Positions 2,814-63,872 of a DNA stretch of 64,000 nt are shown here, piece after piece; position 1 is the stretch's first letter; every line of letters starts with the position of its first letter. Origin of the DNA: an uncultured Candidatus Saccharibacteria bacterium (GTDB taxonomy: Bacteria; Patescibacteriota; Minisyncoccia; Phycocordibacterales; UBA2100); contig CAZOZG010000001.1 in NCBI GenBank assembly GCA_964584225.1, forward strand, positions 21,652 through 85,651, given 5' to 3'. The position numbers and the translations under genes were made by a program. The notes under the pieces were generated by a model that worked only from the letters and a program-made list of their open reading frames with translations, had not been told where the DNA came from and made no database searches.

Positions 2814-3515
2814 ATGGCCAAATCAGGACGTCCGTGGACGGTGGGTGCGCACTCTGAGCTGAAGCAGATCGACGACAATCTCTGGACAGTCGAAGACGTG
2901 TTCGCTCAAGGGATACATCGCCGAATGTGCATCATCAAGCGCTCGGATGGCGCTCTTACCTTTTTTCACGCGGTACCTGTCGATGACGCGACGCTCGCGA
3001 AGATTCGCGCGCTCGGGCAACCAAAATACATCGTCGTCGGCCACGAGCAACACACGGTGGATACGCGTGCCTTTCAAGAAAAACTCGGCCTTTCGGCATA
3101 CGGTCCGAAAAAGCTCGCCGAGGCGCTCAGAAAAAGATTCAATCTCACCGGCGCCCTTGAAGATATCCCCGCTGATCCGTCGATAGAGTACATCGAGACG
3201 CCCGGATCAAAGAAGGGCGAGACGACGTTGCTCGTAAAAAGCGGTGGCGGCTCGCGGGTGAGCATTCTCACTTCAGATGTACTCCAGAATAATCCGCAGA
3301 ATCTTCGACTTATGTTCCGCTTGCTCGGTTTTGCTGGCGGGCCAAAAGTCGTCCCGGTCTACCGCATGCTCTTTACCTCCGACAAAAAAGTCCTCAAAGA
3401 CACGCTTGTGAAATGGGCTGCCATGCCGGGCTTGAAGCGCCTCGTACCCTTCCACGGCATTATCGTCGAAGACGGGGTGAGCGAGGCAATCAAGAAAGCC
3501 GCATCAGCACTATGA
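2814..3515 (+). CDS. hypothetical protein (233 aa)
   Basis: Clean ORF with protein-like composition; no signal peptide; family not recognised with confidence. Confidence 0.5.
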   Translation: MAKSGRPWTVGAHSELKQIDDNLWTVEDVFAQGIHRRMCIIKRSDGALTFFHAVPVDDATLAKIRALGQPKYIVVGHEQHTVDTRAFQEKLGLSAYGPKKLAEALRKRFNLTGALEDIPADPSIEYIETPGSKKGETTLLVKSGGGSRVSILTSDVLQNNPQNLRLMFRLLGFAGGPKVVPVYRMLFTSDKKVLKDTLVKWAAMPGLKRLVPFHGIIVEDGVSEAIKKAASAL

Positions 3516-3943
3516 AGTCCGTCAAAACGAAAAACATCAAGCAAGTCGTGCTGTTCAAAGCGTCACCCCGTGAGCTCTATGCGATGCTCATGGATTCCAA
3601 AAGTCACGCGAAATTTACGGGCGAGAGCGCAAAGATGAGCAAAAAGATTGGCGCGAAATTTACCGCCTACGGCGGCTACATCACCGGCAAAAATCTCAAG
3701 CTGAAGCCCAGTCGCTTGATCGTCCAGGAGTGGCACATGAAAGGCTGGCCCACTGGCCACGCATCGAAAGTGATGTTTCTTTTCACAAAGACGAAAGATG
3801 GCACGAAGCTCACCTTTGGTCACACCGGCGTGCCTGCGACTAGCTACAAAGGCATCAACAGTGGGTGGAAGGAATCGTATTGGGACAAAATGAAAGTTGC
3901 GCTTGGCGAAAAGAAGGCGTCGAAGAAAAAGCGAGCCATGTAG
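3512..3943 (+). CDS. SRPBCC/Aha1-like (activator of Hsp90 ATPase homolog) domain protein
   Basis: 143-aa ORF overlapping the upstream stop by ATGA. Sequence pattern (ELYAMLMDSKSHAKFTG...GGYITGKNLKLKPSRLIVQEW) is typical of the AHSA1/SRPBCC family. Confidence 0.5.
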   Translation: MKSVKTKNIKQVVLFKASPRELYAMLMDSKSHAKFTGESAKMSKKIGAKFTAYGGYITGKNLKLKPSRLIVQEWHMKGWPTGHASKVMFLFTKTKDGTKLTFGHTGVPATSYKGINSGWKESYWDKMKVALGEKKASKKKRAM

Positions 3944-4626: not shown

Positions 4627-5331
4627 ATGCAAAGAGCAACTTCGCTCGGTGACATCACGCGAAGCGTGATGTGCATATCAAACTTCCGCCCCGGAGTGGG
4701 CCTCGATGCCTCAGGGACGGCGTGGTTCCTCAGGCCCACCGTCGTCGTGACTGCCGCGCATACTGCCTCAGGTATGAGCATGTGCCGTGAGTGGCAGCCG
4801 ATTTTGTGCAGGCACGTTGATAAAGGTGGTTCGAAGGAAGTCGCGTCTCTCAACGCCGCGCGGCTCATGAGTGTCGGGAGTCAACGCATTACTCCCGAAA
4901 CGAAGTGGCCTGTGGCTGCGACGATGTACGATGACATCGCACTTCTGGAGCTCCAGGAAGAAGTCCCTCACGCGCACATGCTCGCAGTGGAGCACGAACT
5001 TCCACCTGTGGGTACTCGCGTCGGCTGCGTCGGTTTCCCGCACGGGCAAATGGCTTTGGCGGTTGGCGAAATATTCGAATATGAATCGGGGCAGCCTCTC
5101 GCCATGAGGTTGAATCTCGGGCTCCAGGGGATCGCACCGACCGTGATGCGTTTCGGATCTTCGGGGGCGCCAATAGTGGGCCGGCGGGGTCGCGCCGTCG
5201 CGGTGCTCACGGGCTTGTGCGAGCCAGACGATCCTTTCGAACTTCTCTTCTCGCTCAGACCGAAACCGACGAACTTTGCGATTCACATCTCGCTGATCAC
5301 GCCTCTACTGCAGGAGCTGGGGCTGGGGTGA
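4627..5331 (+). CDS. trypsin-like serine peptidase (S1 family), no signal peptide
   Basis: Putative catalytic triad context: TAAH (His), DIALLEL (Asp) and GSSGAPIV (Ser). An aggagaagagg SD precedes the ATG. Confidence 0.6.
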   Translation: MQRATSLGDITRSVMCISNFRPGVGLDASGTAWFLRPTVVVTAAHTASGMSMCREWQPILCRHVDKGGSKEVASLNAARLMSVGSQRITPETKWPVAATMYDDIALLELQEEVPHAHMLAVEHELPPVGTRVGCVGFPHGQMALAVGEIFEYESGQPLAMRLNLGLQGIAPTVMRFGSSGAPIVGRRGRAVAVLTGLCEPDDPFELLFSLRPKPTNFAIHISLITPLLQELGLG

Positions 5332-5441
5332 GGTGAATCCACGAACATACCAAAAGGCATCGCCCCGCGCGCATGCCTTTTGTTTTTTTTCAATAACGCA
5401 CTAAAATCGTCGCTTAAGCGAAGAGGGAAGCCTCTTTCAAG

Positions 5442-5468
5442 AAAACCCGCCGCAAGGCGGGTTTTCTA
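5442..5468 (+). terminator. rho-independent terminator, repeat of the 2158 hairpin
   Basis: aaaacccgccgcaaggcgggtttt; lies between the two S1 peptidase genes. Confidence 0.55.
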
Positions 5469-5502
5469 CAGGTTGAGTGTCTGCTATAGTTTTCATCCCA
5501 GT

Positions 5503-6642
5503 ATGAATGACATACCAATATCTACTCGGTGGTTAAACGAAGCTGCTGACACCACAAATCAGTCAATTGCTCAAAATGTTTATCTGATCCATTGTCCCAA
5601 AACGCAAAGCAAGGGCACTGGTTTCGTGATCCCGACTGGTCATATTGTAACCAACTGGCACGTTATTAAAGATTGCGGAGCTAATGAGATAAAAGCCATA
5701 TCAACCAACGGTACGCAAATCGACTTTTCGAGCCTCATTGCAGACGAAAACCGAGATCTCGCTGTTCTCAAACCAACCATAGATTTAGGAGGTGGTTTAG
5801 AAATCCATGACGAAACCGAAAAAGTTCAAACAAAAGTATTAACGTGGGGACACCCGCTCGCATATAACGGACCTTCTCCGATTCTTTCCGTAGGCTACAT
5901 CGCTGGTTTTAATGAATACAAGAAAAATGCAACTGCGCCCGTGGTTAAGCGGTACGTCATCAACGGAGCCTTTAATCCTGGAAACTCAGGCGGACCTCTC
6001 CTCGCGGATCGAACAGCTAAAGTTGTTGGTGTGGTAGTTGCAAAACACGCGCCGATTCCGGATTTTCTACAGGCTGCTCTCGATGCCCTCAACAATAACA
6101 AGTCAGGATTCATGTACACAGCTTCGCATAATGGCGTGAGTAAAGGCTCGTTCTCTGAGGCTCAGCTAGTCGGCATGCTGCTGGATCATCAAAGAAAACT
6201 GACTCAGGTGATGATTGGAGAGGCCATATCCAGCTCTGAGCTGATAGCTTTTCTACAAGAAAGCAAAATTTTTCCCGAGAATAATGATATTCGTGGCTTG
6301 TCGGCAATATTTACGCGGTTTCTGAATTCAGTCTCAGACTTGACTGACAAATTTTATGATACTTTCGGGTTGTTTCTTGTTGTCGGGGGAAGTTTGCTGG
6401 CAGCAATGGCTATAGGCGAATTTCCAGGTCACTCAAGAATAGGCACTGATTCTGGCGAATACAGCATCATCGTAATGAAGCATCCAGTTTGGTTAAAATT
6501 GGGACTCATCGCCGTTGTGGTTGGATTTATCGTTCAGCTTTCGGACAACCTGATGACTGTTCATAAATTAGGTGGAAAAAGACTTTACTGGGCTTTAGGT
6601 GCCCTGTTAGTTTATTTGATACTTTTTGTAATGGCGAATTAG
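5503..6642 (+). CDS. trypsin-like serine peptidase (S1 family) with C-terminal transmembrane region; low-GC gene
   Basis: TNWHV (His), DLAVLK (Asp) and GNSGGPLL (Ser) motifs; two C-terminal hydrophobic helices; conspicuously AT-rich compared with neighbours; no SD. Confidence 0.55.
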   Translation: MNDIPISTRWLNEAADTTNQSIAQNVYLIHCPKTQSKGTGFVIPTGHIVTNWHVIKDCGANEIKAISTNGTQIDFSSLIADENRDLAVLKPTIDLGGGLEIHDETEKVQTKVLTWGHPLAYNGPSPILSVGYIAGFNEYKKNATAPVVKRYVINGAFNPGNSGGPLLADRTAKVVGVVVAKHAPIPDFLQAALDALNNNKSGFMYTASHNGVSKGSFSEAQLVGMLLDHQRKLTQVMIGEAISSSELIAFLQESKIFPENNDIRGLSAIFTRFLNSVSDLTDKFYDTFGLFLVVGGSLLAAMAIGEFPGHSRIGTDSGEYSIIVMKHPVWLKLGLIAVVVGFIVQLSDNLMTVHKLGGKRLYWALGALLVYLILFVMAN

Positions 6643-7193: not shown

Positions 7194-7574
7194 TTACGAA
7201 GCCTTGTTCAATTGCACAGCTGCATTGTGCACGAGGCAGATGTTGGGAATGAGACCCGAAAGCAGCATCTCGCGCGGAGACTTATTGCCGAGCTCCGCAA
7301 GCGGTGCTCTGAGCCATTCTGTCAGCGGCTTGCGCTTGTTGAAACGCCGATCAAGCTGTTCCCGGATGTCGATAATGGTGCCGACGAGTTGGATCTCGCT
7401 CATCACGGGGCAATGAAGCAGTTCCGTTTTCACCGCTCCGAGTTCGGACTTTCGCCTGATCCGTTCGAAAAAGACGCGTGCGATCTGGGTCGGCGCGAAG
7501 CCGAGGTGCTTGAGGGATTCGAATGCAGTATCGATACGATTTGCAAACGACACTTTGGGGGTACGTGCTGGCAT
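7194..7574 (-). CDS. Xre-like/DUF2384-like (antitoxin ParS/MbcA-type C-terminal domain) protein, module copy 1
   Basis: C-terminal W...LGNKSPREMLLSG pattern resembles the DUF2384 domain. An aaggagag SD precedes the start. Paralog of 12971-13408. Confidence 0.5.
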   Translation of the reverse strand: MPARTPKVSFANRIDTAFESLKHLGFAPTQIARVFFERIRRKSELGAVKTELLHCPVMSEIQLVGTIIDIREQLDRRFNKRKPLTEWLRAPLAELGNKSPREMLLSGLIPNICLVHNAAVQLNKAS

Positions 7575-7590: not shown

Positions 7591-7615
7591 TGCCGGTCTG
7601 CACCCTAGCACAAAA
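7591..7615 (-). promoter_or_regulatory. conserved upstream motif copy a (tgccggtctgcaccctagcacaaaa)
   Basis: One of four near-identical ~22-nt motifs placed 25-40 nt upstream of each module gene. It contains an extended -10-like TGcTAGGGT on the minus strand. Confidence 0.45.
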
Positions 7616-7707
7616 TCTTTTTTTAAGAAATGAGCCAGCACGCGTACAAAGGAACGGCCGCGCGGTGAAAACCGCGCGGCTCTGATATGTCGATCGCCAA
7701 GTCGTTC

Positions 7708-7797
7708 TTAGCCGATGAGGTCGAAATAGTTGATCACGGTGAGCACGACCACTACAACCGCGACGAGGAACAAAAAGAATTTCACACACCCTGGCAT
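7708..7797 (-). CDS. 29-aa hydrophobic micropeptide (MPGCVKFFLFLVAVVVVVLTVINYFDLIG)
   Basis: Starts 2 nt after the stop of the CPFC membrane-protein gene, with an aaggag SD inside that gene's 3' end. A positional homolog exists in module copy 2. Confidence 0.3.
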   Translation of the reverse strand: MPGCVKFFLFLVAVVVVVLTVINYFDLIG

Positions 7798-7799
7798 GG

Positions 7800-8117
7800 C
7801 TACTTCTTCTCCTTGAAGTTGGGAATCGTCTGGATGGTTACGCCACTTATGATTGCTGCGACACCGACAACCGCAGCCAGAGATACAAGCACGTCGATGA
7901 CAAAAAACACGCGTAAGACCACTGGCCGGTAGATCACGATCAGTGGGAAGGCGACCCAATAGCTCGTACAGAACGGGCAACTGAGGAACGATTTGGGACC
8001 GAATTTTTTGGTGAACCAGTCCCGGAGCGGCTCACCGATATCAGCTTTCGTCAGGGTGACAGAAATCGCTGACACGGCGAAACCAAGGTAGATGATACCG
8101 ATGAACTGATCAATCAT
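7800..8117 (-). CDS. small 3-TM membrane protein with CPFCTSY motif (DUF1360-like), module copy 1
   Basis: About 105 aa; about 50% identical to 12531-12872; conserved SCPFCTS(Y/F) and IYRP motifs. Family assignment is from memory. Confidence 0.5.
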   Translation of the reverse strand: MIDQFIGIIYLGFAVSAISVTLTKADIGEPLRDWFTKKFGPKSFLSCPFCTSYWVAFPLIVIYRPVVLRVFFVIDVLVSLAAVVGVAAIISGVTIQTIPNFKEKK

Positions 8118-8133
8118 GATCGAGACCCTCTCT

Positions 8134-8157
8134 TCCGACCGGCACCCTACCATAAAA
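8134..8157 (-). promoter_or_regulatory. conserved upstream motif copy b (tccgaccggcaccctaccataaaa)
   Basis: Same motif family as 7591, 12889 and 13424. Confidence 0.45.
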
Positions 8158-8199
8158 CGTGTTTTCGAGAAATCGGGAACCATTTGTTACAATCCGCGC

Positions 8200-11599: not shown

Positions 11600-11950
11600 A
11601 TGAAAAAATTTGTTGTGGTGTATCGCGTACCTTTAGAAGTGATGGCGGAGTGGCGCAAGAACACGTCGCAAGAGGAAATGATGAAGCAGGGGAAAGAGCT
11701 CGGTGGTCAGATGGAGGCATGGATGAAAAAGAATGAGAAATCATTTGTCGACAAAGGCAATCCGCTTGGGAAAAACAAGCGCCTGATGAAAGATGGCGTG
11801 CAGGATGTGAGCAACGATCTCAACTACTACCAGGTCGTCGAAGCCAATACTGTCGACGAAGTCATCACGATGTGCAAAGACAACCCGCACATCGCGGTCA
11901 TTCCCGAGGCGTTCCTCGACATCATGGAAGTCCCGCAGATGGGAATGTAA
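11600..11950 (+). CDS. YciI-like / dimeric alpha+beta-barrel family protein, copy 1
   Basis: 116 aa; C-terminal YQVVEANTVDEVITMCKDNPH pattern resembles YciI-like proteins; paralog at 14398-14748. Confidence 0.4.
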   Translation: MKKFVVVYRVPLEVMAEWRKNTSQEEMMKQGKELGGQMEAWMKKNEKSFVDKGNPLGKNKRLMKDGVQDVSNDLNYYQVVEANTVDEVITMCKDNPHIAVIPEAFLDIMEVPQMGM

Positions 11951-12354: not shown

Positions 12355-12392
12355 GAAAAAAGTGGCCGCCCTTGTGCGGCCACAACCTTTTA
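12355..12392. terminator. hairpin gtggccgc-ccttgt-gcggccac with flanking A/T runs (bidirectional)
   Basis: Between convergent genes; a second hairpin (agaccgccggtatgaaccagcggtct) follows at 12400-12432. Confidence 0.5.
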
Positions 12393-12444
12393 TAAAAGAG
12401 GAAGACCGCCGGTATGAACCAGCGGTCTTTTGAGTGCGCGATCT

Positions 12445-12525
12445 TCAGCTAAACGCGCCCATCAGGTAGGCGCCGAAGACGACGACACCAGCGATGATAA
12501 GCAGCCAGACGAAAGGACATTTCAT
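12445..12525 (-). CDS. 26-aa hydrophobic micropeptide (MKCPFVWLLIIAGVVVFGAYLMGAFS)
   Basis: ATG lies 5 nt after the TAG of the CPFC membrane-protein gene, with an aaggag SD. Positional homolog of 7708-7797. Confidence 0.35.
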   Translation of the reverse strand: MKCPFVWLLIIAGVVVFGAYLMGAFS

Positions 12526-12530
12526 TGGGG

Positions 12531-12872
12531 CTACTCCTTCTCTTTAAAATCCGCGTTTGGATCTTTGTTGAAGTGTGGAATCGTTTGGATGACGACTCCG
12601 CTCACAACAGACGCTACGCCGACGATCGCGAAGAGCGAAACGAATAGATCGATCGGCGCGAATGTCAGTATCACCACCGGGCGGTAGATGAGTGTCAGCG
12701 CTGCCGACACATAGAAGCTCGTGCAGAATGGGCACGAGAGTGGTCCGAGACCGCCCCACCGGCCAAATACCCAGCCTCGGATTTGCTTTGACACCTGCGC
12801 TCTCGTCAATGCGACGGAGATCGCTGAGGCAGCAAAGCCGAGGTACACAATCAGGATGAAACGATCGAGCAT
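12531..12872 (-). CDS. small 3-TM membrane protein with CPFCTSF motif (DUF1360-like), module copy 2
   Basis: 113 aa; paralog of 7800-8117. Confidence 0.5.
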   Translation of the reverse strand: MLDRFILIVYLGFAASAISVALTRAQVSKQIRGWVFGRWGGLGPLSCPFCTSFYVSAALTLIYRPVVILTFAPIDLFVSLFAIVGVASVVSGVVIQTIPHFNKDPNADFKEKE

Positions 12873-12888
12873 ACGAGACCCCCGTTTT

Positions 12889-12912
12889 TGCCGAAGAGCA
12901 CCCTAGCATGAA
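12889..12912 (-). promoter_or_regulatory. conserved upstream motif copy c (tgccgaagagcaccctagcatgaa)
   Basis: Same motif family. Confidence 0.4.
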
Positions 12913-12970
12913 GCTCCGGTAAAAGGAAAGGCCGCCCCTCGATTTTCTCGGGGCGGCCTTTTGCTGAAGG

Positions 12971-13408
12971 CTAGTTGGGAGCGAATAGTCGCAGCGACAT
13001 CGCCACAAATGTCACGAGCTTGGAATTCGCCTTCTCAAAGTTCAGCTCCTGGAGACGAATCAGCACGGCAGCCACGAGAAAGAGGCGGCCCTCCGTGAGC
13101 ATTGTCTTTGGCGAATTGCCGAGGCCCTTGTCTTTGCGTCGCACCCAACGCTGTACTTCTTTTTCCGATGTGAAGTGTCGCAACGCGAGCCGCCGGATCT
13201 TCACGAGCCACTCGGATCGGTCCAACACATCCATGTTTTGGAATTTCGTATTGGCGAGCCTGCGCCGAAGCGCGCGGATCTGCGCAGGCGTTCCGTTCAC
13301 GAGTCCGTAGACGCGTGCTCTTTCTTCGATCGAGAATCCGAGCTGCTCCAGCGCTTCAAAACCCGCGTGCACCTTCGCGCGGTATTTTTCAGCTTTCATC
13401 CATGCCAT
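12971..13408 (-). CDS. Xre-like/DUF2384-like protein, module copy 2
   Basis: 145 aa; shares the LGNSPKTMLTEG C-terminal pattern with 7194-7574; aaggag SD. Confidence 0.5.
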   Translation of the reverse strand: MAWMKAEKYRAKVHAGFEALEQLGFSIEERARVYGLVNGTPAQIRALRRRLANTKFQNMDVLDRSEWLVKIRRLALRHFTSEKEVQRWVRRKDKGLGNSPKTMLTEGRLFLVAAVLIRLQELNFEKANSKLVTFVAMSLRLFAPN

Positions 13409-13423
13409 CTTTTGTACTCCTTA

Positions 13424-13449
13424 TGCCGACCGGCACCCTAGCACAAAAG
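13424..13449 (-). promoter_or_regulatory. conserved upstream motif copy d (tgccgaccggcaccctagcacaaaag)
   Basis: Immediately upstream of the SD of 12971-13408. Confidence 0.45.
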
Positions 13450-14353: not shown

Positions 14354-14397
14354 CGGCGTTTTGCTATACTGTGCCTCTATTCGTTAGCATTTATTGT

Positions 14398-14748
14398 ATG
14401 AAGCAATACCTAGCAATGTTTATGGGTTCGACCGCAGCCTTCGATGCGTGGATGAAAATGCCGGAAGCGGATCGAAAAGAAAAAGAAAAAGCGGGCATGC
14501 AAGGCTGGATGAAATGGGCGACTGACAACAAAGCGAGCATCGTCAACATGGGCTCGCCTTTGGGGAAGACGAAACGTGTCGACAAGAGTGGCATTACGGA
14601 TATCAAAAACGAGATGGGCGCTTGGTGCGTCGTGCAGGCGAATTCGTACGACGATGCAGTGAAACTCTTCATAAACCACCCGCACTTCACGCTTTTCCCC
14701 GGTGAGCGCATCGAGGTGATGGAGTGCTTGCCGATTCCGTCGATGTAA
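14398..14748 (+). CDS. YciI-like / dimeric alpha+beta-barrel family protein, copy 2
   Basis: Paralog of 11600-11950 (shared GSPLGKTKRV, VVQANSYDDAV, NHPH); TATACT -10 upstream. Confidence 0.4.
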   Translation: MKQYLAMFMGSTAAFDAWMKMPEADRKEKEKAGMQGWMKWATDNKASIVNMGSPLGKTKRVDKSGITDIKNEMGAWCVVQANSYDDAVKLFINHPHFTLFPGERIEVMECLPIPSM

Positions 14749-18818: not shown

Positions 18819-20963
18819 ATGCGCCTGCGTTACGCACTCATCGGTTCACTTCTCCTCATGCCGCTCGTGGCATTTGCGGGAGGAAAAGGCGGCTACGCGC
18901 AAGGCTACTACCAGGGCTACTACGCACCGCCGTGTCATGACCCGTACTACTATTGTACTGGCAATGATTTGTACGAAAAATTGACCGACGACACCGACCA
19001 ATTCGTCAAAACGTGCGCCAATGGTTGTAACAGTGCGACAGGTGCGTGTATTGACGAAAACCCACCGCAGCCCGTGACCTACACGCCGCCAAGCTGCACG
19101 ATCACATTCGACAAAAATCCCGTGGCACCCGGAGAAAGTACGACCATGCATTGGAGTTCCAGCAATGCGTATTCGATGTACATCAATACGGTTGGTTATG
19201 TCGACCCGTCCGGCTCGGCAACGGTGAACGTCAATCAGACCACCGACCTTTCGGGCGTTGCGACTGGATACAATGCGCCCGCAGGAGCGCCAGCGCCAAC
19301 AAATCAGACGAGCGCGCCGCCGCCCCCGTCGAACACCGTTACCTTCACGACACCGGGCACGTACGAATACACCTGGACGGCACCGACTGGCGTCACGCAA
19401 GTGCACGCGACAGTCGTCGGCGGCGGCGGCGGCGGCGCGGGCGGCCAGGCGCCCGACGACGATGGAGGCTGCGATTGTATTTTGGGCTCGGGCGGCGGGG
19501 CGGGTGGCGCACAGATTAATGAAACCATCAGCGTGACGCCAGGTCAGACGTATCAAGTTATTGTCGGACGAGGTGGTCTCGGTGGTATTCATCGCTCGGT
19601 GTCGTACTGCCCGAGTACCTTCCCCGGCGCGAACGGTGGTGATTCGTCGTTTGGCACGCTCGTAGCGCATGGAGGACAAGCAGGATCCGGCATTTACACA
19701 GGCGGAGCTGGTGGCACGCCAGGCGGGACTGCGGGCTGCGGCGGCACACTCTACTCTGGCGGCTCGAGCTGCGGCGGCACGAACGCCACTTCTCACGGAG
19801 CTGGCGGCACGGGCGGCGGCTGCTACGTCAACGGAGGTAATGGCGCTGATGGCTACGTTTCAATCTCGTGGGACTCGCCTGCGCCTTCTACCGAAACGCC
19901 ACCACCCAACAGCGTGTCTGTCTCGTGTGCGGCAGTGCTCACAACTGATGCCTCACTCGCGCCGTCGGCCCGCATCAGAGCTGACTCAGTCATTGTTGCG
20001 CTTGGTGATTCGATTGGCGTCCACGCCGATTACACCGTCGGCACAGGTGATACCTTAGGATCATCGCGTATCGATTCGCCAGAAGGTAACGCAGTGACCG
20101 GTAGTTCTGCGCTTGCGCATCGCGACTACAGCTTTGCTCCGGCGGTCACCGGTCTTTACACGTTCTTTGCTCGACTCGCGAGCGCAAAATTCCCGACACT
20201 CAAGACATACGATTCGGTCGGGGTACAAGTCTCAGAGAACACGGCGTGTGGCAGCGGTCAGTATTTCGCGACTGATCAGCCCTACGGTGGAGAATGTATT
20301 TGTAAAATAAATAACGCGTTGCCGATCAATGGGCAGTGCGAGTCGTCGTGCACGCTCGGCCAGCACTCCTCAGGCGGCGTATGCTTGTGCGACAACAATG
20401 ACACTGCCCCCGTTTTTGGTGAGTGTCATATGTGCACGGTGGGTACGCCAGTGTGCGCCGGGCCCGATGTCGATGGTGACAGCATCGGTGACAGCATCGC
20501 GCACATTTCAAATGCGCTCACATGTGCCGTAGATACTAGCAACCTCACTGCCTGCAGCAGCGGCTATCACTGCGTATCGGGTCAATGCACACATATGCCA
20601 CCGACTGCGTACTTCCGCGCGCTTCCTGGTGTTGTCGCGAAAGGTAACGCGTCGTCGCTTGCGTGGTTTGCCGCTGGCGTGCAGCCAAGCTCGTGCTCGG
20701 TCACGGGCCCCAACGGTCAAGCCTTTAGTTCGGTCGCGATTGGATCGGCACAAGCCTCCGGCAGTAGCACCGGCGCATGCTCGAGTGCGAACACAAGTTG
20801 CCCGCTCGGCTCTGTGTGTTTGGGGACGCAGTGCATCAACGCGCAACCGACAGCGGCTATCACGTCGCGCAGCACGTTCAATCTTGCGTGCACCGGGCTC
20901 GATGGCACTCCGCTGCGTCAAAGTGTGACGATTGGTATCGCGCCCACACATAGTGAGCACTAA
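18819..20963 (+). CDS. large secreted glycine-rich cell-surface protein (714 aa)
   Basis: Signal peptide; Cys module; CTITFDKNP Ig-like domain; Gly-rich beta-type domain (TPGTYEYTWTAPTGVTQVHATVVGGGGGG...VSISW); C-terminal Ig-like domain ending PTHSEH. Confidence 0.7.
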   Translation: MRLRYALIGSLLLMPLVAFAGGKGGYAQGYYQGYYAPPCHDPYYYCTGNDLYEKLTDDTDQFVKTCANGCNSATGACIDENPPQPVTYTPPSCTITFDKNPVAPGESTTMHWSSSNAYSMYINTVGYVDPSGSATVNVNQTTDLSGVATGYNAPAGAPAPTNQTSAPPPPSNTVTFTTPGTYEYTWTAPTGVTQVHATVVGGGGGGAGGQAPDDDGGCDCILGSGGGAGGAQINETISVTPGQTYQVIVGRGGLGGIHRSVSYCPSTFPGANGGDSSFGTLVAHGGQAGSGIYTGGAGGTPGGTAGCGGTLYSGGSSCGGTNATSHGAGGTGGGCYVNGGNGADGYVSISWDSPAPSTETPPPNSVSVSCAAVLTTDASLAPSARIRADSVIVALGDSIGVHADYTVGTGDTLGSSRIDSPEGNAVTGSSALAHRDYSFAPAVTGLYTFFARLASAKFPTLKTYDSVGVQVSENTACGSGQYFATDQPYGGECICKINNALPINGQCESSCTLGQHSSGGVCLCDNNDTAPVFGECHMCTVGTPVCAGPDVDGDSIGDSIAHISNALTCAVDTSNLTACSSGYHCVSGQCTHMPPTAYFRALPGVVAKGNASSLAWFAAGVQPSSCSVTGPNGQAFSSVAIGSAQASGSSTGACSSANTSCPLGSVCLGTQCINAQPTAAITSRSTFNLACTGLDGTPLRQSVTIGIAPTHSEH

Positions 20964-21473: not shown

Positions 21474-24329
21474 ATGAAACACGTCATACACAATCTGTCA
21501 GTCGTCGTCCTTGGTCTCGGTTTCCTCATCGTGCCTTCGCTTCTGTATGCATATGGCGAAGGGAATTACTACAGCGAGGGGTATTACTATAGCCAATCGT
21601 ATTACGAAGGATTTTATTACAGCCAGGGTTCATACTCATCCAACGCGAAAAGTTGTGATCAGACATTTTCAACACCCGGTCCCGGTACATTTACTGTCCC
21701 AGCAGGTGTCACATCGCTTCGAGTAGTCGCAGTCGGCGGTGGCGGTGGCGGTGGCGCGGGTGCCGGCGGTTGGGGAAGTGGCGGTGGCGGTGGTTGCAGC
21801 GGGGCGGTAGTGGGAAACACGCTCACCGTTACACCTGGGCAAGCAATCCCAGTCTATGTTGGTTATGGCGGAGCAGGAGGTAATGGCGCCGGTCAGTGCA
21901 CTATCTCAGGGTTTCCATGGTGCGGTTCGTATAATCCAAGCACAAATGGTTCTACAGGCGGTGATTCTGGGTTTGGCTCAATCGTTGCGCACGGCGGAAG
22001 CTGGGGAAGGACGGGATTTTACAATCTGTTCAATCAATATCCGGGTGGTAGTGGAGGCGGCTCTGGCGGTGGCGGGGGAGGAAACGGCTGGCCAGGGTTT
22101 TATGCACAAGCTGGAAATGGAGGAATGGCGGGCGGACAGACAAATAGCCAAGGTGCCGGTGGATATTGCACGGGAGGTGGTTGGGGCTGGAACGGTACGT
22201 CGCTCATCAAACAGGTCCCGTATGCAGCTGGCCAGGGGGGCACTGTCGGCGGCGGGTACTACGGTGGCGGCGGTGGCGGCGGACTCATTTTGAACGGCAG
22301 CAGCATCAAGGGCGGTGACGGCCAGTCAAGCCCCGGTAACGGCGGCGTCGGCTACGGAGCGGGCGGCGGCGGTTCGAATCTCGACAACACTGGCGTCGGC
22401 GGCAGTGGGGCACAAGGCATAGTCTACGTTGAATGGGATCCATCTTCGTCTGGTTCGTGTTCTGCGCCACCACCACCCCCTCCGCCGACGGCGCAATGCT
22501 CAATCACATTTGATAAAAATCCAATCAATTTCGGCGATGGCACTACTATTCATTGGACGTCGAACGGAGGTGATCTCTACATCAACAACATCGGATACGT
22601 GAATGCAACAGGGACGGCCGTCGTCCAGCCAGCGACGACGACTGATTATTCAGGAGTTGTCTCCTCCAGCACCTCACTGGCATTCGCGCCGTCTCAGCGA
22701 GGAAAAGTCGCCGGCGCCGGGTCGCAATCGTACATAACGCCGGGCACCTATCAGTTCACGATTCCGAATTACACCGGGACGCTCACGGCCACAGTAAACG
22801 GCGCCGGGGGAGCAGGCGGCTGGGGAGGTTGCGGCGTCGATTCCGGTGGATCAAATCAGTGTCTATATGGCGCAGGCCAAGGAGTCGCATCTGGTTCAGG
22901 CGAGTCGTCTTCATTTGGGTCGGCCATGGCGGGTGGCGGCGGAAATGGTGCCGAAGGTGGGAGGGGTATTACTAGCGACCCTTGTAATGGAGGACCCGGC
23001 GCAGATGGCAACCCGGGAACAGGGACTGTCTCTGGCGGAGGCGCTCTCGGCGGCGGAGGGGGCGATGGATACACAGGAGGATGGTGCAACGGAGGAAAAG
23101 GAGGCACGGGAGGATCTGGAGGTAAGACGACTCAAACATTCACTACGTCTACACTTGCACCCGGGTCCACTGTGACAGTCGTCGTTGGTGCAGGTGGCAT
23201 CGGCTGGGTGGGGTATTGCAATCAGACTTGTGCCGGTTCTGGCCAAAACGGCTCCGTCTCAATCTCCTGGACAGACGCATCAAACCCACCTCCACCCACC
23301 TGCTCCAACGGTCTCAATATCAGCCAATATCCCAGTTGCTCTTGCCCGAGCGGGCAGTCCCAAAGTGGTTCGACGTGTGTGGCGCCCGCGGCACCGAAAG
23401 TTGTTGCAACCTGCCCCGTCACCCTCACCGTCAACAAACCCACAACTCCCACTGCACACATCAGTGCCGATTTCACGAAGCTCACCGTGGGTGAAACCAC
23501 CGGGATCCACGCAGACTTCTCAGCGGGCTCGGGAGATGCAATCGCGGAAGACAACATCGATTCGCCGGAGGGGACGGGCCTTGGTGCGACGACCAACCCT
23601 GATTCGCGCAAAGACATCACCTTCACCGCGTCCACGACGGGGACCTACACCTTCTACGCGCGCATGCGCACGGCAAATTTTCCCGAGTGGAAGTCGTACG
23701 ACAGTGTCACGATCACGGTCTCACCGTCGGCTGAATGCAATACGAACAACGACTGCGCGACCGATGAAATTTGTTCGACATCATCGATGTGCGAATTCCT
23801 CGATTGCGGTGTCGATACCAACATGCATGCAGAAAATCACGAGTGTGTCTGTGATGCCAATTACGCACTCGGCAGCGACAATATCTGCCACCTCGAATGC
23901 ATCGATGCATTTATCTGTGCCAACGCCGACGGCACGCCAGACCCGGGTGGCACCTACAGCGCTCACCAGGATACGAGCTGCACGCTCGGCGCACCGCAGT
24001 TATGTCAGTACGGATGTCTCAATGGCATTTGTGAAAGTCCAACACCGGCCTTTACCTTCAGAATTGTCCCAAGCGCAGTCGTCAAAGGAAACACGACGAC
24101 AATCATCTGGAATGCGACGCATGTGAGTTCCTGTACACTCACTGGTGACAACACAGACGCGTGGAGTTGCGACGATACTGCCTCCTGCACGACGCTTCAT
24201 ACCGTCACCACCGCTCCGATCCAGGGCAAGACGACCTACACACTTTCGTGTCTGCCGCTTGCCGGTCAGCCAGCGATTCCTGATCAAAAGAAGGCAGTCA
24301 CTGTCACGCCCACGCATAGCGAACACTAG
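21474..24329 (+). CDS. giant secreted glycine-rich cell-surface protein (951 aa), paralog of 18819-20963
   Basis: Signal peptide plus Tyr-rich low complexity; CSITFDKNP domain; two Gly-rich domains; PPPP linker; shared central domain (IDSPEG...YTFYARM); Cys-rich EGF-like segment; C-terminal domain ending PTHSEH. Confidence 0.7.
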   Translation: MKHVIHNLSVVVLGLGFLIVPSLLYAYGEGNYYSEGYYYSQSYYEGFYYSQGSYSSNAKSCDQTFSTPGPGTFTVPAGVTSLRVVAVGGGGGGGAGAGGWGSGGGGGCSGAVVGNTLTVTPGQAIPVYVGYGGAGGNGAGQCTISGFPWCGSYNPSTNGSTGGDSGFGSIVAHGGSWGRTGFYNLFNQYPGGSGGGSGGGGGGNGWPGFYAQAGNGGMAGGQTNSQGAGGYCTGGGWGWNGTSLIKQVPYAAGQGGTVGGGYYGGGGGGGLILNGSSIKGGDGQSSPGNGGVGYGAGGGGSNLDNTGVGGSGAQGIVYVEWDPSSSGSCSAPPPPPPPTAQCSITFDKNPINFGDGTTIHWTSNGGDLYINNIGYVNATGTAVVQPATTTDYSGVVSSSTSLAFAPSQRGKVAGAGSQSYITPGTYQFTIPNYTGTLTATVNGAGGAGGWGGCGVDSGGSNQCLYGAGQGVASGSGESSSFGSAMAGGGGNGAEGGRGITSDPCNGGPGADGNPGTGTVSGGGALGGGGGDGYTGGWCNGGKGGTGGSGGKTTQTFTTSTLAPGSTVTVVVGAGGIGWVGYCNQTCAGSGQNGSVSISWTDASNPPPPTCSNGLNISQYPSCSCPSGQSQSGSTCVAPAAPKVVATCPVTLTVNKPTTPTAHISADFTKLTVGETTGIHADFSAGSGDAIAEDNIDSPEGTGLGATTNPDSRKDITFTASTTGTYTFYARMRTANFPEWKSYDSVTITVSPSAECNTNNDCATDEICSTSSMCEFLDCGVDTNMHAENHECVCDANYALGSDNICHLECIDAFICANADGTPDPGGTYSAHQDTSCTLGAPQLCQYGCLNGICESPTPAFTFRIVPSAVVKGNTTTIIWNATHVSSCTLTGDNTDAWSCDDTASCTTLHTVTTAPIQGKTTYTLSCLPLAGQPAIPDQKKAVTVTPTHSEH

Positions 24330-37728: not shown

Positions 37729-39003
37729 ATGTTTCAAGAATTTCTTCGCAAAGCAAAACTCATCGCGACTGATGAGACATTGCGCTCGCGCGTCTTGTTC
37801 GTCTTGGGAGCACTCATCGTTTTCCGTTTGCTCGCCGCGATTCCGGTTCCCGGTATCAACGCAGCCGCACTCCAAAATTATCTCAACAACAACCAATTCC
37901 TGGGCCTCTTGAATGTTTTTTCTGGCGGCGGTTTTTCCAATCTCTCGATCATGATGATCGGTGTCTCGCCCTTCATCACTGCTTCGATCATCATGCAACT
38001 CGCGACAGTCCTCTTTCCGAAATTGAAGGAAATGTATCAAGAAGAAGGCGACTCGGGCCGGCAGCGCTTTACGCAGTACTCGCGATACCTCACGGTGCCC
38101 TTGGCGTTCGTCCAGGCGTTCGGTTTTCTCATTTTGCTTGCGCAAAACGGCGTCCTTCCAGCGCTTGATCTCATGCACATGGTGACCAACGTCGTCGTCA
38201 TCGCAGCAGGATCGATTCTTCTTATGTGGATCGGCGAGTTGATCACGGAATTTGGCGTCGGCAACGGCGTCTCGCTCCTCATCTTCGCTGGTATCGTCGC
38301 GCGCATTCCGAGTAATATTTCGCAACTTGCATTTAGTTTTGACGTCTCGCAGTTGCCGGCCTACGTCGGCTTCCTCGCGGCTGCAATTGTGATCGTCGCT
38401 GGCGTTGTCTTTATCACAGAAGCTGAGCGGCCGATTCCAGTTACCTATGCGCGCCGCGTGCGTGGCATGAAAGTCTTGGGTGGCGTCTCGACGTACTTGC
38501 CGCTTCGCGTGAATCAGGCGGGCGTGATTCCGATTGTCTTTGCACTCTCGATTCTCCTTTTCCCGCAGATGATCGCGTCGTTTCTCGCGCGCAGTTCGGT
38601 GAGCATCGTCGCGACGATCGCGAGCGCAGTCGTCTCAGGCTTGGCGAATCAGTGGATTTACGGAGGTCTGTACTTTGCATTTGTTGTTATCTTCACGTAC
38701 TTCTACACGGCGATTACATTCGAGCCGCACCAGATTGCAAAAAACCTCCATAAAAACGGGGCATTCATCCCCGGCGTTCGTCCGGGCCAAACGACCTCGG
38801 AGTACCTTGGCAACATCATCACGCGCATTACGCTCGTCGGTGCTCTCTTCCTTGGTTTGCTCGCGATCTTGCCCCTCATACTGCGTGGCATCACCGGAAT
38901 TACCGCGCTCACGATTGGTGGCACGGCGCTCCTGATCGTCGTTTCGGTCGTATTGGATGTGGTTAAAAAGATTGACGCGCAAACTTCCATCCGCGAGTAC
39001 TAG
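37729..39003 (+). CDS. secY: preprotein translocase subunit SecY
   Basis: 424 aa, 10 TM; LFVLGALIVFRLLA..IPVPGI N-terminus. Confidence 0.95.
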   Translation: MFQEFLRKAKLIATDETLRSRVLFVLGALIVFRLLAAIPVPGINAAALQNYLNNNQFLGLLNVFSGGGFSNLSIMMIGVSPFITASIIMQLATVLFPKLKEMYQEEGDSGRQRFTQYSRYLTVPLAFVQAFGFLILLAQNGVLPALDLMHMVTNVVVIAAGSILLMWIGELITEFGVGNGVSLLIFAGIVARIPSNISQLAFSFDVSQLPAYVGFLAAAIVIVAGVVFITEAERPIPVTYARRVRGMKVLGGVSTYLPLRVNQAGVIPIVFALSILLFPQMIASFLARSSVSIVATIASAVVSGLANQWIYGGLYFAFVVIFTYFYTAITFEPHQIAKNLHKNGAFIPGVRPGQTTSEYLGNIITRITLVGALFLGLLAILPLILRGITGITALTIGGTALLIVVSVVLDVVKKIDAQTSIREY

Positions 39004-57836: not shown

Positions 57837-57971
57837 GGGTTCTCCTTTTTCCGGACAGTGAGCGAGTCTGAACAAATTCAGAGTCGGTCGCTATCTAAAG
57901 TTAGCGTGCTGGTGGCGCCGCAGAGTACTGCGGCATCCTACAAAAATATAGTCGCTTCGCTTCTTATTTTT

Positions 57972-58365
57972 GTGGAGATGGAGGGAATTGCACCCTCGTC
58001 CAGAGAAGGGAAGATGTATGCTTCTACACAGCGTAGATCATCTTGAAGTTTTAAATCACGTACCTAAAAGATGAACGAAACGGTACGCGATCGAGCTCGT
58101 TGTCTCGGAAATCTGCTGAGCAGACAGAATTCCATGCTTGAGATTTGTTACGCCCGGCGGAAATTAATCAAGCATCATCTCCGTGGACGGCGCTTAGGCT
58201 ACGAGAGCGTAAGCGGGCTGCAGGTCCGCCAATTGAATTGGCGAGAGTACTGCACGTGCTACTTTGTTCGCACTTAGTTTTGAGGCAGTTTCGAAAGATG
58301 CCCCAACTTTGTTGTGCACATACAAAATCCTATTTCCCTGTCGAAACTGATCATCCCCCACCTCC
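57972..58365 (-). ncRNA. ssrA: tmRNA (SsrA), about 392 nt, standard (non-permuted)
   Basis: 5' GGAGGUGGGGGAUGAUCAGUUUCGACAGGG matches the GGGGnnG...GAUUCGACGGG tmRNA consensus. The 3' end is a T-arm-like GAGGGUGCAAUUCCCUC followed by CAUCUCC-A, which pairs perfectly with the 5' GGAGGUG. An internal frame SPIQLADLQPAYALVA-UAA is a plausible tag peptide. It lies immediately downstream of smpB. Confidence 0.7.
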
Positions 58366-63757: not shown

Positions 63758-63830
63758 GCGCCCGTAGCTCAACGGTTAGAGCACAGAGCTTATACCTCTG
63801 GGGTTCCTGGTTCGAATCCAGGCGGGCGTA
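63758..63830 (+). tRNA. tRNA with anticodon UAU (reads AUA; tRNA-Ile by anticodon)
   Basis: Manual cloverleaf: acceptor GCGCCCG/CGGGCGU (G1-U72 wobble); D arm GCTC-AACGGTTA-GAGC; anticodon arm CAGAG-CTTATAC-CTCTG; variable loop GGGTT; T arm CCTGG-TTCGAAT-CCAGG; discriminator A; CCA not encoded. TATAAT at 63744-63749. Confidence 0.8.
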
Positions 63831-63872
63831 CATGAAACAAAATAGTGCCTACGCACTGTTTTGTTTCATGTA
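63831..63872 (+). terminator. long hairpin catgaaacaaaatagtgc-ctac-gcactgttttgtttcatg after the tRNA
   Basis: About 18-bp nearly perfect stem directly after the tRNA 3' end. Confidence 0.55.

What the first reader, a model, noticed from the sequence alone, without database searches (positions are those of the whole stretch)
12445..12525. Conserved 26-29 aa hydrophobic micropeptides translationally coupled to the CPFC membrane-protein genes
MKCPFVWLLIIAGVVVFGAYLMGAFS (12445-12525, minus strand) starts 5 nt after the upstream TAG, with an AAGGAG SD inside the upstream gene's last codons. The positional homolog MPGCVKFFLFLVAVVVVVLTVINYFDLIG (7708-7797, minus strand) starts 2 nt after the TAG with the same embedded SD. 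Both have a Cys at position 3-4 followed by a single TM helix. Conserved position, SD and character across two diverged copies argue that these tiny ORFs are real genes, comparable to type I toxins or membrane-protein accessory subunits.
Basis: seen in the sequence. Interest (0 to 1): 0.6.

Follow-up and report, generated by a model that had tools for sequence, protein, structure and literature searches.

The report
Conserved cysteine micropeptide beside DUF1360-like gene
Two tiny genes (26 and 29 codons) in this Kaiserbacteria-like genome belong to a conserved, almost never annotated family of one-helix membrane peptides that always sits directly after a small CxxC membrane-protein gene and is most likely that protein's extra subunit.

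Summary
Each ORF starts 5 or 2 nt after the stop of a DUF1360-like three-helix membrane-protein gene. An AAGGAG sits in that gene's last codons, and an intrinsic terminator follows each small ORF.

Ten further distinct loci encode a relative at least 44% identical to the partner protein. Every one has a 22-34 codon ORF at the same place, with a Shine-Dalgarno sequence, one invariant Cys (usually C-P-x-[IVL]-W) and one hydrophobic helix. Two lineages with more distant relatives (about 40% or less) lack it.

The peptide sequence drifts, but the second codon position is the most conserved. One locus carries two tandem copies. One homolog appears to have the peptide fused as a fourth helix.

No Pfam or NCBIfam family matches, and only one of ten peptides exists as a called protein.

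Best reading: a stoichiometrically co-translated single-helix subunit of the DUF1360-like protein. Its Cys probably lies at the cytoplasmic membrane face next to the partner's CPFC motif. That site is inferred, and translation is not shown directly. The type I toxin reading is not favoured. This is a new family of a known kind.

The parts
12531..12872 (-). DUF1360-like three-helix membrane protein, copy A (113 aa, SCPFCTS motif at residues 46-52)
   Evidence: ORF. Pfam DUF1360 19.8 bits, just under the cut-off of 21. 22 of 23 subfamily members hit DUF1360. AF2 model has helices 2-24, 27-39, 48-66 and 72-97, pLDDT 69.
12445..12525 (-). Micropeptide A, 26 aa: MKCPFVWLLIIAGVVVFGAYLMGAFS (C-P-x-V-W motif plus one TM helix)
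   Evidence: Positional homologs in 10 further loci. No known family. Not present as a called protein.
12534..12539 (-). AAGGAG Shine-Dalgarno for micropeptide A, embedded in codons K-E of the upstream gene, 8 nt before the ATG
   Evidence: Read directly from the sequence. The same arrangement is seen in all related loci.
12402..12429 (-). Intrinsic terminator 16 nt after the micropeptide A stop (12-pair stem, then CCTCTTTTAT). A second hairpin at 12362-12383 is bidirectional.
12885..12915 (-). Shared promoter/operator-like motif (TGCTAGGGTGC...CGGCAAAAA) upstream of copy A
   Evidence: TAGGGTGC occurs only 4 times in the window, all upstream of these four genes. Alignment.
7800..8117 (-). DUF1360-like membrane protein, copy B (105 aa from the ATG at 8117; upstream in-frame starts extend the ORF to 8183)
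   Evidence: 55% identical to copy A. Pfam DUF1360 29.5 bits, above the cut-off. Start chosen from the alignment with homologs.
7708..7797 (-). Micropeptide B, 29 aa: MPGCVKFFLFLVAVVVVVLTVINYFDLIG
   Evidence: The only one of the ten peptides looked up that is present as a called protein in public collections (P0170).
7809..7814 (-). AAGGAG Shine-Dalgarno for micropeptide B, in codons K-E of the upstream gene, 11 nt before the ATG
   Evidence: Read directly from the sequence.
7657..7680 (-). Intrinsic terminator 28 nt after the micropeptide B stop
8130..8160 (-). Shared promoter/operator-like motif (TGGTAGGGTGCCGGTCGG) upstream of copy B
12971..13408 (-). Xre/ParS-antitoxin-like 145-aa gene next to copy A. 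It has its own copy of the shared motif (13433-13440) and its own terminator. It may regulate the module, but its membership of the module is inferred.
   Evidence: Pfam Xre_MbcA_ParS_C 19.2 bits, below the cut-off. NCBIfam Xre_ParS_antitoxin 21.6 bits against 90. Motif.
7194..7574 (-). Xre/ParS-antitoxin-like 126-aa gene downstream of copy B, with the shared motif at 7600-7607. The same gene order is seen in L006.
   Evidence: L006 synteny.

Best explanation
Each small ORF is a real gene. It is co-transcribed with the preceding DUF1360-like gene as a ~0.5-kb bicistronic unit (promoter motif, membrane protein, micropeptide, terminator). A ribosome binding site built into the partner's last codons couples their translation, so the two products are made together.

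The product is a 22-34 residue single-pass membrane peptide. It most likely docks onto the three-helix DUF1360-like protein as a fourth helix, that is, as a dedicated subunit.

By the positive-inside rule the partner is N-out/C-in. Its invariant CxxC then lies at the cytoplasmic start of helix 2. The peptide's single invariant Cys, usually followed by Pro and preceded by K/R, also sits at the cytoplasmic start of its helix. The proposal is therefore that the three thiols form one shared site for metal or redox chemistry at the inner membrane face.

What is shown: conservation, gene arrangement and coding signature. What is inferred: translation, physical association, topology and the shared Cys site.
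For: 1. The ORF is present in every one of the 12 distinct loci (two in the window, ten elsewhere) that carry a subfamily protein at least 44% identical to the copy A protein. Start offsets run from -19 to +6 relative to the partner's stop, including GTGA, ATGA and TAATG overlaps. An SD lies 5-13 nt upstream in each locus. An 11th related locus has no DNA available, but JGI called a 27-aa gene 2 nt after the homolog's stop.
2. The Cys is invariant in 14 of 14 peptides. Pro follows in 10 of 14, and Trp is at +4 in 8 of 14.
3. The coding signature is present. Differences by codon position are 797/552/817, so position 2 is the most conserved. T at position 2 is 0.55 in frame against 0.17 and 0.22 out of frame.
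4. Terminators follow the peptide ORFs in the window, and terminator-like hairpins can be read after those in the related loci. None lies between the two genes.
5. The peptide is absent downstream of more distant DUF1360 proteins at about 40% identity or less (L020/L021; L007-L010). It therefore co-distributes with one narrow clade, which has only 4 clusters at 50% identity among 1.84 billion representatives.
6. L019 has two tandem copies.
7. P0025 (144 aa) carries ...KKMCPIVAGLAVFILIAIIFGLSVR fused in frame after the DUF1360-like domain. It is the only one of 168 homologs with an extra TM helix after the domain.
8. Charge counts are loop 1 4.75 K+R, C-tail 2.5, N-terminus 0.3. These give the N-out/C-in topology. 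The peptides carry K/R before the Cys in 9 of 14.
Against: - There are no expression, ribosome-profiling or proteomic data.
- Peptide sequences are so divergent that pN (0.51) is not far below pS (0.65), which is saturated.
- The +2 frame is also open in 10 of 13 ORFs, so openness alone is weak evidence.
- The AAGGAG may be conserved because it encodes the partner's FKEK tail.
- A profile of the 13 peptides scores the P0025 tail at only 3.4 bits, no better than unrelated TM helices. P0025 is also a singleton on a 755-nt contig. The fusion is therefore only suggestive.
- AF2 places the fourth helix of P0025 with low confidence, pLDDT 54-65.
- An artificial partner-peptide fusion could not be modelled.
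- The function of DUF1360 itself is unknown.
Confidence: 0.6

Rival explanations
1. The micropeptide is a type I-like membrane toxin, or otherwise a self-acting toxic or pore-forming peptide. Its expression is kept low by its position behind another gene, and it may be counteracted by the neighbouring Xre/ParS-like protein.
For: Its size, extreme hydrophobicity and single helix resemble Ibs/TisB/Fst-type toxins, whose features are summarised in PMC12648545. An antitoxin-like gene lies next to the operon in 3 loci and shares its promoter motif. Other toxin-antitoxin genes (ParE/RelB) lie nearby in one related contig.
Against: - It has no transcription unit of its own. It always follows the same partner within -19 to +6 nt and sits before the terminator.
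- No sigma-70-like promoter was found on the opposite strand that could make an antisense RNA.
- The Xre-like hits are far below the family cut-offs. That gene is missing from most related loci.
- An invariant Cys-Pro motif and strict co-distribution with one protein subfamily fit a specific partner better than generic membrane damage.
Confidence: 0.12
2. The peptide is a real, translated small membrane protein, but it acts on something other than the DUF1360-like protein, for example a regulator of another membrane complex. It is merely co-expressed with that gene.
For: Many characterised small membrane proteins act on targets not encoded next to them (review PMC12648545). Nothing here shows physical contact. 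The P0025 tail homology is not statistically supported.
Against: The adjacency survives across about 45-60% partner divergence, in different genomic neighbourhoods and in both paralogous copies in one genome. The peptide is absent wherever the close subfamily is absent. Start/stop overlaps imply matched synthesis.
Confidence: 0.15
3. The ORFs are not translated. The stretch between the partner's stop and the terminator is conserved as RNA (3' UTR), or the ORFs are relics of a lost fourth helix.
For: There is no expression evidence. Annotation pipelines skipped 9 of 10. The +2 frame is also often open.
Against: - Nucleotide sequence is poorly conserved, while start codon, SD spacing, length, Cys codon and hydrophobic second-position T are kept.
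- Length differences between the ORFs are whole codons, for example L001 against L002.
- The ORF is duplicated in tandem with its own SD in L019.
- Shuffles give at most 0.16% chance per locus.
Confidence: 0.06

Closest known systems
CydX/CydS-type small subunits of cytochrome bd oxidase (also KdpF of KdpFABC, and PetG/L/M/N-type small subunits)
   Same: A protein of 50 aa or fewer with a single TM helix. It is encoded directly after the genes of its membrane partner in the same operon, has a very plastic sequence with only a short conserved N-terminal motif, and is frequently missed by annotation (PMC4325964 and PMC6005532). Proposed mode of action: an integral extra helix of the complex.
   Different: There is no sequence relationship; Pfam and NCBIfam found nothing. 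The partner is a tiny 3-TM protein of unknown function rather than a large enzyme. The conserved motif is Cys-Pro-x-[IVL]-Trp, not the CydX motif. Association is not demonstrated.
AcrZ / MgtS / MgrB-type small membrane regulators
   Same: Single-pass small proteins that bind a larger membrane protein. MgrB function depends on conserved cysteines (PMC12648545).
   Different: Those are usually separately transcribed, stress-induced regulators acting in trans. Here the gene is obligately coupled to its presumed partner. The Cys is predicted on the cytoplasmic side, not the periplasmic side.
Type I toxins (Ibs, TisB, Fst, Hok families)
   Same: Length and hydrophobicity. Hok toxins also depend on translational coupling to an upstream ORF (Mok; my own knowledge). 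HokB's cysteines matter for its function (PMC12648545).
   Different: No antisense RNA gene or own promoter was detected. The peptide always follows a conserved bona fide membrane-protein gene. It has no charged C-terminal tail.
DUF1360 (PF07098) membrane proteins - the partner's family
   Same: About 100-140 aa, three helices, and an invariant CxxC at the start of helix 2. 22 of 23 subfamily members hit the Pfam model. The subfamily profile reaches 1215 proteins.
   Different: The window proteins form a narrow, divergent clade: a 50-bit gap separates it from the rest of the family, and copy A falls just under the Pfam cut-off. This clade alone carries the micropeptide gene. No function or structure is known for any DUF1360 protein in the sources searched.

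Membership tests
Small single-TM accessory subunit encoded with its membrane partner (functional class: CydX, KdpF etc.) | 50 aa or fewer with one predicted transmembrane helix | tested here: met
   22-34 aa. The best 15-residue Kyte-Doolittle window is 2.7 for copy A and 3.5 for copy B, and the related peptides passed a 2.0 threshold. Alignment.
Small single-TM accessory subunit encoded with its membrane partner (functional class: CydX, KdpF etc.) | Same transcription unit as the partner, conserved across species | tested here: met
   12 of 12 distinct subfamily loci. There is no terminator between the genes; a terminator follows the peptide ORF in the window, and a terminator-like hairpin can be read in the related loci.
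Small single-TM accessory subunit encoded with its membrane partner (functional class: CydX, KdpF etc.) | Physical association with the partner, and an effect on its stability or activity | not testable with these tools
   The only indirect hints are the fused homolog P0025 (not statistically supported) and the low-confidence AF2 placement.
Known micropeptide families in Pfam-A / NCBIfam (CydX, KdpF, EYxxD, etc.) | Profile match at or above the curated cut-off | tested here: not met
   The best hits are 9-14 bits against cut-offs of 20-32.
Type I toxin-antitoxin toxin | Small hydrophobic membrane peptide | tested here: met
Type I toxin-antitoxin toxin | Own promoter and 5' UTR, with an overlapping or adjacent antisense RNA antitoxin | tested here: not met
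   The ORF starts within -19 to +6 nt of the partner's stop in all loci. There is no promoter-like site on either strand around 12380-12560 or 7650-7830. The scan covers the sigma-70 consensus only, so a cryptic promoter is not excluded.
Type I toxin-antitoxin toxin | Toxicity on overexpression | not testable with these tools
   This needs an experiment.
Bacterial lipoprotein (lipobox Cys) | Cys at the end of a signal peptide, after its hydrophobic core (L-[AS]-[GA]-C) | tested here: not met
   The Cys lies at residues 3-11, before the only hydrophobic segment, and there is no lipobox context.
DUF1360 (PF07098), for the partner protein | Pfam score at or above the gathering cut-off of 21 bits | tested here: inconclusive
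   Copy B scores 29.5 bits (met). Copy A scores 19.8 bits (just under). 22 of 23 relatives match at E<=0.01.
DUF1360 (PF07098), for the partner protein | About 100-140 aa, three TM helices, invariant CxxC at the start of helix 2 | tested here: met
RES-Xre / ParS-type antitoxin, for the neighbouring 126- and 145-aa genes | Profile score above the cut-off, and an adjacent RES/ParT-type toxin gene | tested here: not met
   Pfam 19-21 bits against 24.5. NCBIfam 18-22 bits against 90. There is no toxin-family gene beside them, and PADLOC found nothing.

The most novel reading that the evidence does not exclude
The DUF1360 fold is a thiol-based membrane device, for example a metal-binding or redox site at the cytoplasmic membrane face. 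In this Kaiserbacteria-centred clade its active centre is split between two polypeptides: the CxxC of the 3-TM protein and the invariant Cys of the micropeptide. The peptide would then be a catalytic or ligand-donating subunit rather than a passive helix. In the window the module would also be under a dedicated Xre-like regulator that recognises the shared TAGGGTGC-CGGTCGGC operator.
Probability: 0.2. Interest if true: 0.6.

Novelty: new member of a known kind. Interest (0 to 1): 0.4.

Why it matters
Candidate-phyla-radiation bacteria have tiny genomes full of unknown small membrane proteins. This genome nevertheless keeps two copies of the two-gene module.

The result gives DUF1360 its first conserved genetic partner, and DUF1360 is a widespread family with no known function. 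It also gives a concrete, testable idea: three cysteines meeting at the inner membrane face.

It is a clean example of how annotation pipelines miss conserved micropeptide genes. Nine of the ten peptides looked up were not called. It also shows how a neighbourhood comparison can recover them.

The practical consequence is modest. It is a new small-protein family and an annotation fix, not a new principle.

Tried and rejected
- Scan of GTDB species-representative genomes with the subfamily patterns: no relatives. The clade is rare even though the window is Kaiserbacteria-like.
- Viral contig scan: nothing.
- Pfam, NCBIfam, PHROGs and PADLOC on the peptides and their partners: only DUF1360 and an unknown-function phrog_781.
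- PDB by sequence profile and by fold: no relative. The AFDB library was unavailable.
- AF2 of the natural fusion P0025: the fourth helix is low-confidence and no coordinates were available.
- HMM of the peptides against all homologs, to test the P0025 tail: 3.4 bits, not discriminating.
- dN/dS: saturated and uninformative.
- Frame openness: the +2 frame is also often open, so it was dropped as an argument.
- Lipoprotein signal reading: rejected, because the Cys precedes the hydrophobic segment.
- Read-through or C-terminal extension of the partner: rejected, because the peptide is out of frame with the partner and has its own start codon and SD.
- Antisense shadow ORFs on the + strand (12430-12687 and 7687-7932): rejected as mirror images of the coding strand.
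- Rfam on the conserved non-coding stretch of L001/L002: no family.

Full report
**1. What is in the sequence**

On the minus strand, a 113-aa ORF (12531-12872) ends ...FKEKE-TAG. Five nucleotides later, ATG opens a 26-codon ORF (12445-12525) encoding MKCPFVWLLIIAGVVVFGAYLMGAFS. AAGGAG occupies 12539-12534, inside the last codons of the upstream gene and 8 nt before the ATG.

A paralogous gene (7800-8117; longer if upstream starts are used) ends ...FKEKK-TAG. It is followed after CC by a 29-codon ORF (7708-7797) encoding MPGCVKFFLFLVAVVVVVLTVINYFDLIG. The same embedded AAGGAG lies at 7814-7809.

The two upstream proteins are 55% identical. They share an SCPFCTS motif and hit Pfam DUF1360 weakly, at 19.8 and 29.5 bits against a cut-off of 21.

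Terminator-like hairpins follow both small ORFs, and none lies between the genes.

**2. Is it more than chance?**

Within the window, a scan of both strands looked for 20-40 aa ATG/GTG ORFs with an early Cys and a strongly hydrophobic 15-mer. It returned exactly these two ORFs, and both have an SD.

In shuffles of the downstream regions, an ORF of at least 20 aa at this position is not rare (4-30%). One that is also hydrophobic with an early Cys arises in at most 0.16% of shuffles. These criteria were chosen after seeing the data.

**3.

A single-sequence search found only 4 proteins. A profile search found 23. One metagenome scan added L006.

Every locus whose protein is at least 44% identical to copy A has a small ORF at the same place:

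| Locus | Peptide | Note |
|---|---|---|
| L001 | MLKILTCPVIWVLALLICGIIALYSNG | |
| L002 | MLKCPFVWMVAFFLFALIAAFANT | |
| L003 | MWGCPGIWLLGIVLLVIGGGALVSCMGG | |
| L006 | MRVCPALAIAVLLLFLVIGAMLAFG | GTG start, GTGA overlap |
| L011 (=L012) | MPACSVIALGIVGLIVLAAVFM | |
| L013 | MGCPLLWILGIAVVIGAGLLFML | |
| L014 | MGMFFCPAIWLIVVLAIGALFLFKVF | |
| L015 | MPKWVPRCPIFWMLVVIIVVSIGVWRCSSG | |
| L016-18 | MNNRPRRKSPCGVAILVVALIIGLVIASLVLGSG | TTG start at -19, with AAGGAG 7 nt upstream |
| L019 (first) | MNKCFVGLVLIAVMALCLVALTVLSK | ATGA overlap |
| L019 (second) | MLKKVFSCPVIWLLVMAAVAMAWIAIMR | GTG start with its own GGAGGAAGGAG |

- For one more homolog (P0009) the DNA could not be fetched. JGI had nevertheless called a 27-aa gene 2 nt after its stop.
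- Loci with more distant DUF1360 proteins have no such ORF: L020/L021 at 40% identity, and L007-L010 at 30-43% over part of the protein.
- In each related locus a terminator-like hairpin can be read after the small ORF in the printed sequence.

**4. Coding signature**

- The only invariant residue is the Cys (14 of 14). Pro follows in 10 of 14, and Trp is at +4 in 8 of 14.
- Summed over all pairs, differences at codon positions 1, 2 and 3 are 797, 552 and 817.
- T at position 2 is 0.55 in frame, against 0.17 and 0.22 out of frame. This is the signature of selection for a hydrophobic helix while the residues themselves drift.
- pS and pN are saturated (0.65 and 0.51), so they say little.
- The +2 frame is also open in 10 of 13 ORFs, so openness alone is not evidence.
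- L001 and L002 lie in near-identical flanking sequence in the same assembly. Their ORFs differ by a whole number of codons.

**5. Is it a known family?**

Nothing matches in Pfam or NCBIfam; the best hits are 9-14 bits. Only the copy B peptide exists as a called protein among about 15 billion sequences, and nine others do not. 'DUF1360' occurs in two papers of the library, both only in passing. No solved structure is related by sequence or by fold.

**6. The partner and its clade**

A full HMMER scan of 1.84 billion representatives found 1215 DUF1360-type proteins. Only 4 clusters scored above 150 bits, and the next hit was at 103 bits. The micropeptide-bearing clade is therefore narrow.

SecY in the window is up to 84% identical to that of Candidatus Kaiserbacteria MAGs. 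The host is thus a CPR/Patescibacteria bacterium. Even so, no species-representative genome carries the clade.

**7. Evidence on mechanism**

- **Topology.** Across 16 subfamily members the K+R counts are: N-terminus 0.3, loop 1 4.75, loop 2 1.2, C-tail 2.5. This gives an N-out/C-in topology, with the invariant CxxC at the cytoplasmic start of helix 2. Helix boundaries come from AF2 at pLDDT 69. The peptides carry K/R before the Cys in 9 of 14 and almost no charge after the helix, which suggests N-in.
- **Possible natural fusion.** Among the 168 homologs collected, only P0025 (144 aa) has an extra TM helix after the domain. Its tail reads ...ENERPKK-MCPIVAGLAVFILIAIIFGLSVR. That is a Met-Cys-Pro start, a helix, and the right topology after a cytoplasmic Lys-rich linker. 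It looks like a fusion of the two genes.
- **Limits of that evidence.** The fusion is only suggestive. A profile of the peptides scores the tail at 3.4 bits, no better than other TM helices. P0025 is a singleton on a 755-nt contig. AF2 gives its fourth helix pLDDT 54-65.
- **Inference.** The peptide is a co-translated fourth helix of the DUF1360-like protein, and its Cys lies in the same membrane plane as the CxxC.

**8. Rivals**

- **Type I-like toxin.** This is favoured only by size and hydrophobicity and by antitoxin-like neighbours. Against it: the peptide has no transcription unit of its own, no antisense promoter-like site was found, and it is strictly coupled to one partner family.
- **Non-coding 3' UTR or relic.** This is contradicted by sections 3 and 4 above.
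- **A trans-acting small protein that is merely co-expressed.** This cannot be excluded without interaction data.

**9. Module context (noticed in passing)**

TAGGGTGC occurs exactly four times in 64 kb. All four sites are on the minus strand, 20-45 nt upstream of the two DUF1360-like genes and the two Xre/ParS-like genes. They sit within a shared ~30-nt motif, TTTTrTGsTAGGGTGCmGGTCGGCAAAAAGG.

L006 shows the same gene order (partner, peptide, terminator, Xre-like gene). It has a different 18-mer repeated before both genes. This suggests a dedicated regulator-operator pair, though the Xre-like hits are all below the family cut-offs.

**10. Verdict**

The best model is a dedicated single-helix subunit with a functionally important Cys. 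This is a new family of a known kind and is of moderate interest.

Noticed in passing
window 7600-7607, 8142-8149, 12898-12905, 13433-13440 (all minus strand): TAGGGTGC occurs exactly 4 times in the window (0.64 expected). Each site is 20-45 nt upstream of one of the two DUF1360-like genes or one of the two Xre/ParS-like genes. All sit within a shared ~30-nt motif containing an extended -10-like TGsTAGGGT and a small palindrome GCCGGTCGGC. This is probably a common promoter/operator.
   Followed up: partly
L006 1-18 and 487-504: A related metagenome locus has its own identical 18-mer, TCCTGTATTGTCGCGCTC, before both its DUF1360-like gene and its Xre-like gene. The sequence differs from the window's motif, as expected for a co-evolving regulator-operator pair.
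   Followed up: no
L019 753-833 and 849-935: This locus (GCA_030432135.1) carries two tandem micropeptide genes after the DUF1360-like gene. Each has its own start and SD, and a single terminator follows.
   Followed up: partly
P0025 (ENA, 755-nt contig): A 144-aa homolog in which a micropeptide-like MCP... helix is fused in frame after the DUF1360-like domain through a Lys/Pro-rich linker. It is a singleton, and the homology of the tail is not statistically supported.
   Followed up: partly
window 37729-39003 and the whole window: SecY is up to 84% identical to that of Candidatus Kaiserbacteria MAGs, so the window comes from a CPR/Patescibacteria genome. A tmRNA lies at 57970-58358(-) and a tRNA-Ile(TAT) at 63758-63831.
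   Followed up: yes
window 4627-5331(+) and 5380-6642(+): Two adjacent trypsin-like protease genes match the protease part of the PADLOC 'RT-Protease_XI' defence models (E 7e-20 and 4e-7). The second has a C-terminal membrane region.
   Followed up: no
window 11600-11950(+) and 14371-14748(+); L015 3051-3365: A 116-aa protein with no Pfam family lies near copy A. A 125-aa ORF at 14371-14748 looks related by eye (not compared with a tool). The 116-aa protein is 33% identical (E 6e-19) to the gene directly downstream of the operon in L015, so it may be a recurrent neighbour.
   Followed up: partly
L001 ~1470-1800 and L002 ~3270-3590: A ~330-nt non-coding stretch downstream of the operon is highly conserved between two contigs of the same assembly. 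In L001 a further ORF and the infC-rpmI genes lie downstream of it. No Rfam family matches.
   Followed up: partly
window 18819-20963(+), 21474-24329(+), 44949-47768(+): Two large Gly_rich_2-domain proteins and a 939-aa protein with a TraG-D_C domain lie elsewhere in the window.
   Followed up: no
window 12430-12687(+) and 7687-7932(+): 81-85 aa ORFs lie antisense to the micropeptide and the 3' end of the DUF1360-like genes in both copies. They are judged to be shadow ORFs of the coding strand.
   Followed up: no
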